Assembly (NCBI GenBank): GCA_964552775.1
Contig: CAZKIH010000011.1
Location: forward strand, 15,206 to 79,205
Length of the DNA stretch: 64,000 nucleotides
Reading direction: 5' to 3'
Source: an uncultured Ignavibacteria bacterium
Lineage (GTDB): Bacteria; Zixibacteria; MSB-5A5; CAIYYT01
The position numbers were made by a program, and so were the translations under genes. The notes below the pieces were generated by a model. That model was not told where the DNA came from, did no database searches, and was given only the letters and a program-made list of their open reading frames with translations. This document shows positions 5,096-6,130 of the stretch, in pieces; positions within the stretch are counted from its first letter, which is position 1; every line of letters begins with the position of its first letter.

Positions 5096-6130
5096 TCAAC
5101 CGCCAAGGAGACGATCAATGAATCCTCTCTTGCGGGCTCGTTCAACTTGAAACGACCGCAATCTCAGAAAATCAGTCAGCGTCTTGGCCGGGTAGTCATA
5201 ACTCGAACCCTTGAAATAGTCAACGAGTGCACTCTCCAGATCAAGTAGGGTCTGCACTCTGCGCTTCGGTTCATGTTCGATCATCATATTGACGATGCGA
5301 GCTAGAGCCTTCAACAAAGTCCGCATTGCAGTATCTTTGTAAGAAGGACTCAACGAGTCCGCATTCTCGCGAAAGTTCTCGCGGATGTTCTGACGCACTT
5401 CGAAGACATTTCCGCCAAAATAAGGATAGCGACCAGTCATCATCTCGACCATCATTAGTCCCAGTGAGAATATGTCCGAGCGCCGGTCGGCGTAGCCATT
5501 CTTGAGAAGCTGTTCCGGCGATTCGTAGACGTTCAACGAATACGGCAGGTCCAACTTCAGGCGATCGCACAGGTGACAGACCGGAAGCATGTCTATGTCG
5601 GTCACCATGACCCTGCCCTGAGTAGTGACAATCACGTTCTCGGGCCTGAGGTTCTTGTGCAGAGGTATCAGATTTCCCATGCCTGGCGACGGTCTGACCC
5701 CGTGAATCTGATTGAGTGCTTGCATGATGCCCTGGGCGATTAGTGCAACCAGGTCTGGATGAAGTGGAGCGTTTTCTGCAATGATCGAACGTAGGCTGAG
5801 GCCATCCACATATCCGTATTCCAGCATCAGTATCTCGTTATGTAAAACGAGCCCGCGGTAGGGTTGGATAAGGTTTCCCGTGAACTCGAAATATAGATGG
5901 CTCTGCTTATTGAAGAGCTCAGCTACTTCGTGATGATGCGACAGGCGACGGCGCAACACTTTGAGTCGTACCTGCTCATTGTTGTCAAGCCGTCGGGCAC
6001 GATAGCAGAAGCTGAGTGGGCCTTCGCCGATTTTGTTTTTGTCGACGACGTAATTCTGGAATCTTTCGGGTAGCGAGGGGTCATCGGAAACCGCGAATTC
6101 CGCAAATCGTCCATGATAATCTTGCGTCAT
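5096..6130 (-). CDS. Hanks-type Ser/Thr protein kinase-like protein (PpkA-like), predicted catalytically impaired
   Basis: Gly-loop IGEGPLSF, Lys in VRLKVL, SPE motif, DIFSLG. The catalytic-loop HRDLKPxN is replaced by HKNLRPEN (Asp to Asn), and DFG is replaced by DID. Confidence 0.7.
   Translation of the reverse strand: MTQDYHGRFAEFAVSDDPSLPERFQNYVVDKNKIGEGPLSFCYRARRLDNNEQVRLKVLRRRLSHHHEVAELFNKQSHLYFEFTGNLIQPYRGLVLHNEILMLEYGYVDGLSLRSIIAENAPLHPDLVALIAQGIMQALNQIHGVRPSPGMGNLIPLHKNLRPENVIVTTQGRVMVTDIDMLPVCHLCDRLKLDLPYSLNVYESPEQLLKNGYADRRSDIFSLGLMMVEMMTGRYPYFGGNVFEVRQNIRENFRENADSLSPSYKDTAMRTLLKALARIVNMMIEHEPKRRVQTLLDLESALVDYFKGSSYDYPAKTLTDFLRLRSFQVERARKRGFIDRLLGG

What the first reader, a model, noticed from the sequence alone, without database searches (positions are those of the whole stretch)
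5096..6130. T6SS-linked Hanks kinase with HRD->HKN and DFG->DID: predicted pseudokinase
The glycine loop, VAIK-like Lys, APE-like SPE and subdomain IX are all present. The catalytic loop reads HKNLRPEN instead of HRDLKPxN, so the catalytic-base Asp is Asn, and the Mg-binding DFG is DID. The protein is short and soluble (344 aa, no TM or vWA domain), unlike canonical PpkA. It may act as a phospho-independent scaffold or an atypical kinase in T6SS post-translational control.
Basis: partly seen in the sequence, partly recalled or inferred. Interest (0 to 1): 0.65.

Follow-up and report, generated by a model that had tools for sequence, protein, structure and literature searches.

The report
Secretion-system kinase look-alike missing catalytic aspartate
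A gene at the head of a type VI secretion (bacterial injection machine) cluster in an uncultured Zixibacteria genome encodes a protein-kinase look-alike that keeps its ATP and magnesium contacts but has lost the catalytic aspartate, so it is most likely a membrane-attached switch or scaffold rather than a normal kinase; it is a modest new variant of a known regulatory theme.

Summary
Window 5096..6130 (-) encodes a 344-aa Hanks-type kinase domain. Alignments to PAK6, PknB and Stk1 place HKN under HRD and DID under DFG.

The interpretation needs three corrections:
- **Mg-binding Asp is kept.** D178, the first residue of DID, is invariant in 44/44 family members, as are the beta3 Lys (K57) and the catalytic-loop Asn (N165). 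Only the catalytic-base Asp is gone: N in 39/44, D in 4, S in 1. The alphaC-Glu position and the catalytic-loop Lys are also not conserved.
- **Probably not simply soluble.** The tail ...RK[KR]GFIDRL[FL]GG-COOH matches the E. coli MinD membrane-targeting helix (KKGFLKRLFGG) at 5-9 of 11 positions in 43 of 44 members (1 of 11 in P0042).
- **T6SS linkage is common, not universal.** Most loci read FHA, kinase-like, split ClpV, TssB, TssC, TssD, VgrG, TssF, TssG, TssK. One subclade carries the gene 41 kb from the cluster.

The family is tiny, Zixibacteria-restricted and under purifying selection (dN/dS about 0.05). No PP2C phosphatase or second kinase was found nearby.

Best reading: a nucleotide-binding pseudokinase or very weak kinase, peripherally membrane-bound, working with the small FHA protein as a TagE/TagH-like T6SS regulator. 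It is a new variant of a known kind, of moderate interest.

The parts
5096..6130 (-). Kinase-like gene, 344 aa: a PknB-derived Hanks kinase fold with HKN in place of HRD.
   Evidence: ORF. Pfam Pkinase 7e-23. PDB alignments. AF2 pLDDT 88.7. Foldseek top hits are PknB.
5636..5659 (-). Catalytic loop H158-K-N160-L-R162-P-E-N165. The catalytic-base Asp is replaced by Asn (codon 5651-5653), and the loop Lys is Arg here.
   Evidence: Family counts: N 39, D 4, S 1 of 44. The loop Lys position is K32/R5/T4/S3. N165 is 44/44.
5591..5599 (-). D178-I-D180 at the DFG position. The metal-binding Asp is retained.
   Evidence: D178 is 44/44. The F position is I/V in 40 of 44, and the G position is D24/G13/E6/A1.
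5960..5962 (-). Beta3 lysine K57 (VRLK).
   Evidence: Aligned to PknB K40. Invariant in 44/44.
6011..6031 (-). Glycine-rich loop IGEGPLS (res 34-40). G35 and G37 are invariant; the third Gly is Ser.
5660..5704 (-). Family-specific insert HGVRPSPGMGNLIPL (res 143-157) just before the catalytic loop. It contains the nearly invariant S148 in an R-P-S-P-G loop that is disordered in the model.
   Evidence: It shows as a 9-residue gap against PAK6, PknB and Stk1. It is conserved in alignment A1. pLDDT is below 50 at residues 147-151. S148 is 43/44.
5099..5134 (-). C-terminal tail RKRGFIDRLLGG (res 333-344): a MinD-like amphipathic membrane-targeting motif.
   Evidence: E. coli MinD ends in EKKGFLKRLFGG. 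The last 11 residues are identical at 5-9 of 11 positions in 43 of 44 family members, and at 1 of 11 in the remaining one, P0042, which carries a KRRS extension. The motif is absent from 147 other kinases and from every other window ORF. The model has a short helix at 337-341.
6050..6085 (-). Conserved N-terminal extension D16-D-P-S-L-P-E-R-F-Q-N-Y27, ahead of the kinase core.
   Evidence: D16, P18, P21, F24, Q25 and Y27 are invariant in A1.
6232..6573 (-). Small FHA-only protein, 113 aa, immediately upstream. It is the likely partner (TagH-like FHA domain).
   Evidence: Pfam FHA 5e-12. Best NCBIfam hit is TagH, TIGR03354, at 8e-13 but below its cut-off. The GR / SxxH / N-G..N-G residues are conserved in 13 orthologs. 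It lies directly upstream of the kinase-like gene in 12 distinct loci besides the window.
3444..4865 (-). ClpV/TssH N-terminal half: Clp_N, AAA D1 and lid.
   Evidence: NCBIfam TssH and ClpB hits. The split is conserved in relatives.
2333..3406 (-). ClpV/TssH C-terminal half: AAA_2 D2 and D2-small.
1857..2312 (-). TssB/VipA-like sheath small subunit (divergent).
   Evidence: Pfam T6SS_VipA 1.4e-4. TIGR03358 1.4e-4.
433..1839 (-). TssC sheath large subunit. The rest of the T6SS cluster runs off the window's left end.
   Evidence: Pfam TssC PF17541 2e-50. In relatives the downstream genes are TssD, VgrG, TssF-like, TssG and TssK.

Best explanation
This is a Zixibacteria-specific accessory regulator of a divergent, non-proteobacterial T6SS. 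It derives from a PknB-type Ser/Thr kinase and has become a nucleotide-binding pseudokinase, or at most a very feeble kinase. Shown: the fold, the retained ATP/Mg ligands (K57, N165, D178 and the G-loop glycines), and the loss of the catalytic-base Asp (N160). Also shown: no conserved alphaC Glu, a variable catalytic-loop Lys, strong purifying selection, and conserved placement at the head of the T6SS cluster next to a minimal FHA protein. Inferred: the protein binds ATP/Mg without efficient phosphotransfer. It attaches peripherally to the inner membrane through its MinD-like C-terminal amphipathic helix. Because one MinD-type helix is too weak on its own, that attachment would probably depend on dimerisation. 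On this reading it works with the 113-aa FHA protein as a switch or scaffold that licenses T6SS assembly or ClpV function. That would make it a phosphatase-less analogue of the TagE(PpkA)/TagH(Fha1) module.
For: The kinase fold and motif register are established. Family conservation (44 sequences) is as follows: K57, N165, D178, G35, G37, E206, D219 and R291 are all 44/44. The HRD-Asp position is N39/D4/S1. The catalytic-loop Lys position is K32/R5/T4/S3. The position aligned to the PknB/Stk1 alphaC Glu (Q76) is Q/L/A/M/V, and the neighbouring K75 is R/K/Q/E. No Thr is conserved anywhere in the protein. All 44 genes are intact, with dN/dS of 0.04-0.06 and dN 3-5 times that of the neighbouring T6SS genes. 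The gene order FHA, kinase-like, split ClpV, TssB, TssC, TssD, VgrG, TssF, TssG is kept across relatives down to 41% identity. The kinase-like gene and TssG share a contig in at least 7 assemblies (matching contig lengths). No PP2C and no second Hanks kinase was found in the complete related clusters L036 and L041, in the partial L040, in the 64-kb window or in any fetched locus. The MinD-like tail is shown. PMC8155659 states that one MinD MTS copy binds membrane too weakly and that dimerisation supplies the affinity. There is precedent for pseudokinases in secretion and FHA signalling: EssB/YukC in T7SSb, and the MviN pseudokinase recruiting FhaA (PMC12599244).
Against: The neighbouring FHA protein keeps every canonical phosphothreonine-binding residue in all 13 orthologs, which implies that some kinase makes a pThr ligand. 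This gene is the only kinase-like gene nearby. Four natural orthologs carry a canonical HRD Asp in three separate lineages, so the family may not be uniformly inactive. HxN kinases such as HER3 and JAK2-JH2 have weak activity (my own knowledge). One subclade (L015, L016, L018, L024) is not adjacent to the T6SS, and three T6SS-linked loci lack the FHA gene. Membrane binding, nucleotide binding and any contact with FHA or T6SS proteins are untested.
Confidence: 0.55

Rival explanations
1. It is a weak or atypical but genuinely active Ser/Thr kinase, a TagE/PpkA-like enzyme. It would phosphorylate a T6SS component or the FHA partner on Thr, with Asn160 orienting the substrate hydroxyl and the proton passing directly to ATP.
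For: The ATP/Mg ligands K57, N165 and D178 and the G-loop glycines are invariant. The adjacent FHA domain has an intact pThr pocket in all orthologs. No other kinase lies in the window or the T6SS loci. Natural D160 orthologs exist, and the position is restricted to N/D/S rather than drifting freely. The canonical TPP logic of TagE plus TagH is known (PMC13584744).
Against: The catalytic base is Asn in 39/44. The gamma-phosphate-contacting loop Lys is T or S in 7/44. The alphaC Glu position is not conserved. No Thr is conserved for autophosphorylation or FHA docking. No PP2C (TagG) was found to reverse the signal in the clusters read. The protein evolves 3-5 times faster than the machine components.
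Confidence: 0.3
2. It is a general membrane-associated signalling protein of Zixibacteria, unrelated to T6SS function, whose adjacency to the cluster is historical accident.
For: In the 346-aa HRN/DIG subclade the gene sits between a dockerin/FG-GAP protein and pth-rpsF, 41 kb from the T6SS. The T6SS clusters L036, L038 and L041 start at ClpV with no FHA or kinase-like gene. A 230-nt gap separates the gene from clpV in the window.
Against: Adjacency to clpV persists in 14 of the 18 species-level genome loci (L008-L025), across 41-76% protein identity. The family is tiny and was recovered together with the T6SS on the same contigs. Even the unlinked copy lies on the same contig as a T6SS.
Confidence: 0.1
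3. It is a repurposed kinase fold with another chemistry, such as AMPylation (as in SelO) or glutamylation (as in SidJ).
For: Pseudokinases with alternative catalysis exist (PMC12599244). The nucleotide and metal ligands are retained.
Against: The closest sequence and structure relatives are ordinary PknB-type kinases. No extra catalytic motif or migrated residue is conserved. No feature specific to SelO or SidJ was seen.
Confidence: 0.05

Closest known systems
TagE/PpkA - TagH/Fha1 - TagG/PppA threonine phosphorylation pathway of proteobacterial T6SS-i
   Same: A Hanks-type kinase-fold gene and an FHA-domain gene are encoded in a T6SS cluster, next to clpV. The FHA domain's best NCBIfam hit is TagH.
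   Different: The catalytic Asp is replaced by Asn. There is no TM segment and no periplasmic/vWA sensor; a MinD-like C-terminal helix is present instead. The FHA protein is a bare 113-aa domain. No PP2C phosphatase was found in the clusters read. The T6SS itself is divergent from T6SS-i: TIGR03355 and TIGR03358 hit only at about 1e-4, while Pfam TssC PF17541 and TssD PF17642 match. The host is Zixibacteria, not Proteobacteria.
HxN 'ATP-binding' pseudokinases (HER3 HRN, JAK2 JH2 HGN)
   Same: The substitution is the same single Asp->Asn at the catalytic base, with the beta3 Lys, catalytic Asn and DFG Asp retained. The model also predicts a short helix (res 182-190) at the start of the activation segment.
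   Different: These are unrelated eukaryotic tyrosine-kinase lineages, and the resemblance is recalled from my own knowledge and was not tested here. They are receptor or JAK domains, not bacterial secretion regulators.
EssB/YukC pseudokinase of the type VIIb secretion system
   Same: A kinase-fold protein without catalytic competence serves as a membrane-associated assembly factor of a secretion machine (PMC12599244).
   Different: EssB has a degraded glycine loop, a truncated activation loop and a true TM helix. The present protein keeps a near-complete ATP site and has no TM. There is no sequence relationship beyond the fold.
MviN (MurJ) pseudokinase domain with FhaA in Mycobacterium tuberculosis (ActPs3 family)
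   Same: It is a pseudokinase paired with an FHA-domain protein in a regulatory complex.
   Different: The MviN domain lacks all three catalytic motifs (VALT, no HRD, no DFG). It is fused to a membrane transporter and is phosphorylated in trans by PknB on a Thr. Here there is no conserved Thr and no nearby kinase.
MinD C-terminal membrane-targeting sequence
   Same: The extreme C-terminus K-K-G-F-[IL]-x-R-L-F-G-G is nearly identical to that of E. coli MinD.
   Different: It is attached to a kinase fold, not a ParA/MinD ATPase. An Asp replaces the MinD Lys (FIDRLF against FLKRLF). Membrane binding is untested.

Membership tests
Hanks-type (eukaryotic-like) protein kinase superfamily, Pfam PF00069 | Profile match above the curated threshold, and a bilobal kinase fold. 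| tested here: met
   81.8 bits against a 31.7 cut-off. AF2 pLDDT 88.7. Foldseek top hits are PknB at E about 1e-14.
Hanks-type (eukaryotic-like) protein kinase superfamily, Pfam PF00069 | Catalytic triad of an active kinase: beta3 Lys, HRD Asp, DFG Asp. | tested here: not met
   K57 and D178 are present, but the HRD Asp is N160. It is N in 39/44 relatives.
Pseudokinase (sequence definition) | Lacks at least one of beta3 Lys, HRD Asp or DFG Asp (definition in PMC12599244). | tested here: met
   The HRD Asp is Asn at the aligned position.
Pseudokinase (functional definition) | No phosphotransfer activity. | not testable with these tools
   This needs in vitro kinase assays. The sequence evidence is mixed.
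TagE/PpkA T6SS kinase | Genetic linkage to a T6SS cluster with an FHA (TagH) partner. | tested here: met
   The window, and 14 of the 18 species-level genome loci (L008-L025) fetched, have the gene beside ClpV-TssB-TssC. The FHA gene is adjacent in 12 distinct loci besides the window.
TagE/PpkA T6SS kinase | Catalytically intact kinase domain that autophosphorylates on Thr. | tested here: not met
   N160 replaces the catalytic Asp, and no Thr is conserved in the family. Activity itself was not assayed.
TagE/PpkA T6SS kinase | Transmembrane segment plus a periplasmic (vWA-type) sensor domain. | tested here: not met
   No Pfam domain beyond the kinase. The maximum KD-19 hydropathy is 1.19. The protein ends 50 residues after the kinase core.
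TagE/PpkA T6SS kinase | Cognate PP2C phosphatase TagG/PppA in the cluster (minimal TPP is tagE, tagG, tagH; PMC13584744). | tested here: not met
   No PP2C was found among the products of the complete related clusters L036 and L041 or the partial L040, which carries a TssG identical to the one (P0208) recorded on a 106,711-bp contig, the same length as the contig of the window's kinase-like protein P0001. The last genes of the window's own cluster were not seen.
Described bacterial pseudokinase families (ActPs1-3, GLW, CP1, DYD, DLHK) | Family-specific motif patterns. For example, ActPs2 has beta3 K->R, HRN and a DFG deletion; GLW replaces HRD; DLHK has a degraded VAIK/DFG with HRD kept. | tested here: not met
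   The pattern here is VRLK / H[KR]N / D[IV][DGE], which matches none of the patterns described in PMC12599244. An exhaustive profile search found only 3 full-length 50%-identity representatives.
MinD-type C-terminal membrane-targeting sequence | Conserved amphipathic motif at the extreme C-terminus. | tested here: met
   5-9 of 11 identities to E. coli MinD KKGFLKRLFGG in 43 of 44 family members, and 1 of 11 in the remaining one, P0042. The hydrophobic moment equals that of the MinD tail (0.37 against 0.37). The motif is absent from 147 other kinases.
MinD-type C-terminal membrane-targeting sequence | Binds the lipid bilayer. | not testable with these tools
   This needs liposome co-sedimentation or localisation of tail-deleted protein.

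The most novel reading that the evidence does not exclude
The protein would be the first pseudokinase regulator of a type VI secretion system. In this reading it is an ATP-gated, dimerisation-dependent membrane-binding switch. The kinase fold would act as the nucleotide sensor and a MinD-type weak amphipathic tail as the avidity-dependent membrane anchor. Together with a minimal FHA protein it would license assembly of a non-proteobacterial T6SS without phosphotransfer and without a phosphatase.
Probability: 0.3. Interest if true: 0.7.

Novelty: new variant of a known kind. Interest (0 to 1): 0.45.

Why it matters
Post-translational control of T6SS firing is understood only for the proteobacterial PpkA-PppA-Fha1 pathway. 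The full-text searches run here and the 2026 review of T6SS accessory factors turned up nothing equivalent for divergent, non-proteobacterial T6SSs. A conserved kinase-like plus FHA pair at the head of a Zixibacteria T6SS suggests that FHA-based control is older or more widespread than thought. The pair lacks the catalytic Asp, a sensor domain and a phosphatase, so the kinase may have been converted into a nucleotide-dependent scaffold. The natural D/N/S polymorphism at the catalytic-base position in otherwise conserved orthologs offers a ready-made experiment on how a kinase becomes a pseudokinase. The MinD-like tail is a compact, testable case of a membrane-targeting motif grafted onto a signalling domain. 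The limits are an uncultured host, a tiny family, and the fact that pseudokinases as such are common.

Tried and rejected
- **Exact-sequence lookup of the window protein.** It found no contig. Context was obtained from orthologs, and from L040, a contig whose TssG is identical to P0208, the TssG recorded on a 106,711-bp contig of the same length as the one holding the window's own kinase-like protein.
- **Full-text searches.** Searches for a T6SS pseudokinase, for a Zixibacteria T6SS, and for T6SSiii with FHA and kinase found nothing describing this family.
- **Conserved Thr as an FHA docking or autophosphorylation site.** None exists. The only near-invariant hydroxyl residues are S148 in the RPSPG insert and the structural S218.
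- **Compensation between the HRD residue and the DFG+2 residue.** There is none. HKN-DID, HRN-DIG, HRN-DVE, HRD-DVE and HRD-DID all occur.
- **Link between FHA presence and D versus N.** There is none. HRD orthologs occur both with FHA (L002, L023) and without it (L021).
- **Promoter and terminator scan of 4700-6900.** It gave no more sites than shuffled controls.
- **Rfam and tRNA scans of the window.** Both were empty.
- **dN/dS between the window and its nearest relatives.** It was unusable because dS is saturated. Closer pairs within the clade were used instead.
- **Decaying pseudogene.** Rejected: 44 intact genes and dN/dS of about 0.05.
- **Membership of PpkA/TagE, ActPs2 or EssB.** Rejected, because defining features were tested and not met.
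Full report
**1. Observation**

Window 5096..6130 on the minus strand is a 344-aa ORF with an ATG start and an AGGA 8 nt upstream. It matches Pfam Pkinase PF00069 at 7e-23, 81.8 bits against a cut-off of 31.7.

HMMER alignments to solved kinases (PAK6, PknB) and a family-profile alignment to PknB and S. aureus Stk1 agree on the motif register:

| Motif in the window protein | Canonical element |
|---|---|
| IGEGPLS (res 34-40) | glycine loop (third Gly is Ser) |
| VRLK57 | VAIK |
| H158-K-N160-L-R-P-E-N165 | HRDLKPxN |
| D178-I-D180 | DFG |
| S-P-E206 | APE |
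| D219 | subdomain IX |
| R291 | subdomain XI |

An AlphaFold2 model built on 32 orthologs is confident (pLDDT 88.7, pTM 0.88). Its best PDB matches are PknB kinase domains. There is no TM segment and no second domain.

**2. What is lost and what is kept**

I collected 44 full-length relatives and counted each catalytic position.

| Position | Residues across 44 relatives |
|---|---|
| Beta3 Lys K57 | invariant |
| Catalytic-loop Asn N165 | invariant |
| DFG Asp D178 | invariant |
| G35, G37 (glycine loop) | invariant |
| APE Glu, alphaF Asp, subdomain-XI Arg | invariant |
| Catalytic-base position (N160) | N 39, D 4, S 1 |
| Catalytic-loop Lys position | K 32, R 5, T 4, S 3 |
| Position aligned to the PknB/Stk1 alphaC Glu (Q76) | Q/L/A/M/V |
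| Neighbouring position K75 | R/K/Q/E |

An acidic residue one helical turn earlier (E71) is present in 34 of 44.

DID is therefore not a loss of the Mg-binding residue. The protein has lost the catalytic base and probably the canonical Lys-Glu pair. The residues that hold ATP and Mg are under absolute conservation.

On a neighbour-joining tree, Asn looks ancestral. Asp appears in three separate lineages (P0022; P0034; P0043 with P0044) and Ser appears once. By the sequence definition used in the field (PMC12599244), this is a pseudokinase through HRD-Asp loss alone.

**3. The gene is functional and the family is small**

All 44 genes are intact and 340-386 aa long. dN/dS between close pairs is 0.04-0.06, so this is not a decaying gene.

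It is, however, the fastest-evolving gene of its neighbourhood. Where ClpV, TssB and TssC are 93-97% identical to the window's, and the FHA protein 90%, the kinase-like protein is 72-76% identical. Where the neighbours are 78-88% identical, it is 51-54%.

A profile search of 1.84 billion representative proteins found only three full-length representatives at 50% clustering. Every other hit was an ordinary, often multi-domain, kinase. Named sources are Zixibacteria MAGs.

**4. Genomic context**

On the minus strand the window reads:
- FHA-only protein of 113 aa (6232..6573)
- the kinase-like gene
- ClpV/TssH split into two ORFs (3444..4865 and 2333..3406)
- TssB-like (1857..2312)
- TssC (433..1839), after which the cluster runs off the window

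In relatives the cluster continues with TssD, VgrG, two small ORFs, a TssF-like baseplate protein, TssG, TssK, a 304-aa protein, a 620-aa GTPase-like protein, a 275-aa GAP1-N2-like protein and one more small ORF. Housekeeping genes follow.

The machine proteins match Pfam TssC PF17541 and TssD PF17642. They hit the proteobacterial T6SS-i NCBIfam models only at about 1e-4. I recall that those two Pfam models derive from Bacteroidota T6SS-iii, but I did not verify this.

The kinase-like gene sits directly upstream of clpV in the window and in 14 of the 18 species-level genome loci fetched (L008-L025). This holds down to 41% protein identity. The FHA gene is directly upstream in 12 distinct loci besides the window.

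There are exceptions:
- L021 (the same contig as L003), L017 and L020 lack the FHA gene.
- The 346-aa HRN/DIG subclade (L015, L016, L018, L024) has the gene between a dockerin/FG-GAP protein and pth-rpsF.
- In the 822-kb contig of that subclade, a T6SS cluster without FHA or kinase lies 41 kb away.

No PP2C phosphatase and no second Hanks kinase was found in the related clusters that were read to their end, in the 64-kb window, or in any fetched locus.

**5. Family-specific features**

- **Insert before the catalytic loop.** A conserved 9-residue insert (HGVRPSPGxGNLIPL) precedes the catalytic loop. It contains the near-invariant S148 in a loop that is disordered in the model.
- **N-terminal extension.** The motif DDPxLPERFQNY is conserved ahead of the kinase core.
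- **C-terminal tail.** The tail reads ...ER.RK[KR]GFIDRL[FL]GG-COOH.
  - E. coli MinD ends ...EEEKKGFLKRLFGG.
  - The last 11 residues are identical to MinD's at 5-9 positions in 43 of the 44 members. The exception, P0042, has a KRRS extension and scores 1 of 11.
  - The hydrophobic moment equals that of the MinD tail.
  - The motif is absent from 147 other kinases and from every other ORF of the window.

This MinD segment is the amphipathic membrane-targeting helix. One copy is too weak to bind the membrane, and dimerisation provides the affinity (PMC8155659). The protein is therefore probably peripherally membrane-associated rather than simply soluble. This tail would stand in for the TM helix of PpkA.

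**6. The FHA partner**

The 113-aa FHA protein keeps the canonical phosphothreonine-binding residues (G-R, S-x-x-H, N-G...N-G) in all 13 orthologs aligned. Its best NCBIfam hit is the FHA domain of TagH, below that model's cut-off.

This argues that a pThr ligand exists somewhere, yet the kinase-like protein has no conserved Thr. The ligand must then be on another protein, made either by a feeble activity of this protein or by an unlinked kinase. Alternatively, the FHA contact is phospho-independent.

**7. Most likely mechanism**

Shown:
- a PknB-derived fold
- an ATP/Mg site kept under strict selection
- a degraded catalytic base and alphaC pairing
- no sensor domain and no phosphatase
- a conserved position at the head of a T6SS cluster beside an FHA protein

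Inferred:
- The protein binds nucleotide but transfers phosphate poorly or not at all.
- Nucleotide-dependent dimerisation brings two weak MinD-type helices to the membrane.
- There, together with the FHA protein, it nucleates or licenses T6SS assembly or ClpV action.

I give this reading 0.55. The main rival is a weak but real TagE-like kinase. It is supported by the intact FHA pocket, the absence of any other kinase nearby, and the natural HRD orthologs. I give it 0.30. A T6SS-unrelated role gets 0.10 and alternative chemistry 0.05.

**8. Comparison with known systems**

- **TagE/PpkA, TagH/Fha1, TagG/PppA pathway (PMC13584744).** This is the closest system in function. Membership of the TagE family fails on three tested features: an intact catalytic Asp, a TM plus periplasmic domain, and a cognate PP2C.
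- **Described bacterial pseudokinase families.** None fits. ActPs2 shares HRN but has K->R and a deleted DFG.
- **EssB/YukC of T7SSb and the MviN pseudokinase with FhaA.** These are analogies in logic, not relatives.
- **HER3 and JAK2-JH2.** These are the nearest pattern match for an HxN site with retained ATP ligands. This comparison rests on my own knowledge.

**9. Verdict**

The DFG argument was wrong, 'soluble' is doubtful, and catalytic death is unproven.

This is a new variant of a known kind: a T6SS-associated kinase/FHA module in which the kinase has become pseudokinase-like and is anchored by a MinD-like tail, in an uncultured phylum. Interest is moderate at 0.45. The idea is testable in vitro and the natural D/N polymorphism is attractive. 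Against that, pseudokinases are common and the host cannot be manipulated.

Noticed in passing
window 2333..4865 (-); also L001, L003, L005, L007, L036, L041: ClpV/TssH is encoded as two separate ORFs with a 37-nt gap: N-domain plus D1 plus lid (473 aa), and D2 plus D2-small (357 aa). The same 472-475 / 357 split recurs in the Zixibacteria T6SS loci read here, at 68-95% identity. L002 is the exception, with its N-terminal half broken further into two ORFs. It looks like a genuine, conserved split AAA+ unfoldase rather than a frameshift.
   Followed up: partly
L036 15103..17831; L040 4124..6013; L041 13352..16104: The distal end of the T6SS cluster encodes a 620-629-aa protein with weak DO-GTPase2 and faint IcmF-related_N hits. 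In L036 it is followed by a 275-aa GAP1-N2-like protein. These may substitute for the TssM-type membrane-complex NTPase in this divergent T6SS.
   Followed up: no
window 7610..13350 (+): The T6SS cluster head lies about 3.5 kb from dnaA (10046..11419) and dnaN (11655..12764), so it is next to the probable replication origin. Mrp/ParA-like and NifU genes lie between them, and an IS200-like Y1 transposase ORF follows at 12877..13350. The same synteny is seen in L001.
   Followed up: no
L024 (kinase-like gene at 10001..11017) and L041, both on contig_5694 (822 kb): In the HRN/DIG subclade the kinase-like gene has moved 41 kb from the T6SS cluster, to a spot between a dockerin/FG-GAP protein and pth-rpsF. 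The T6SS cluster there starts at clpV, next to a squalene/phytoene synthase gene. TssC and TssD in L041 are each called in two pieces, which may reflect long-read indels or decay.
   Followed up: partly
window 5660..5704 (-), residues 143-157: The family-specific insert has a nearly invariant Ser (S148, 43/44) in an R-P-S-P-G loop that is disordered in the model. It is a candidate regulatory or phosphorylation site, but it is a Ser and therefore not an FHA ligand.
   Followed up: no
window 1..64000: No tRNA gene and no Rfam family at gathering threshold was found anywhere in the 64-kb window.
   Followed up: yes
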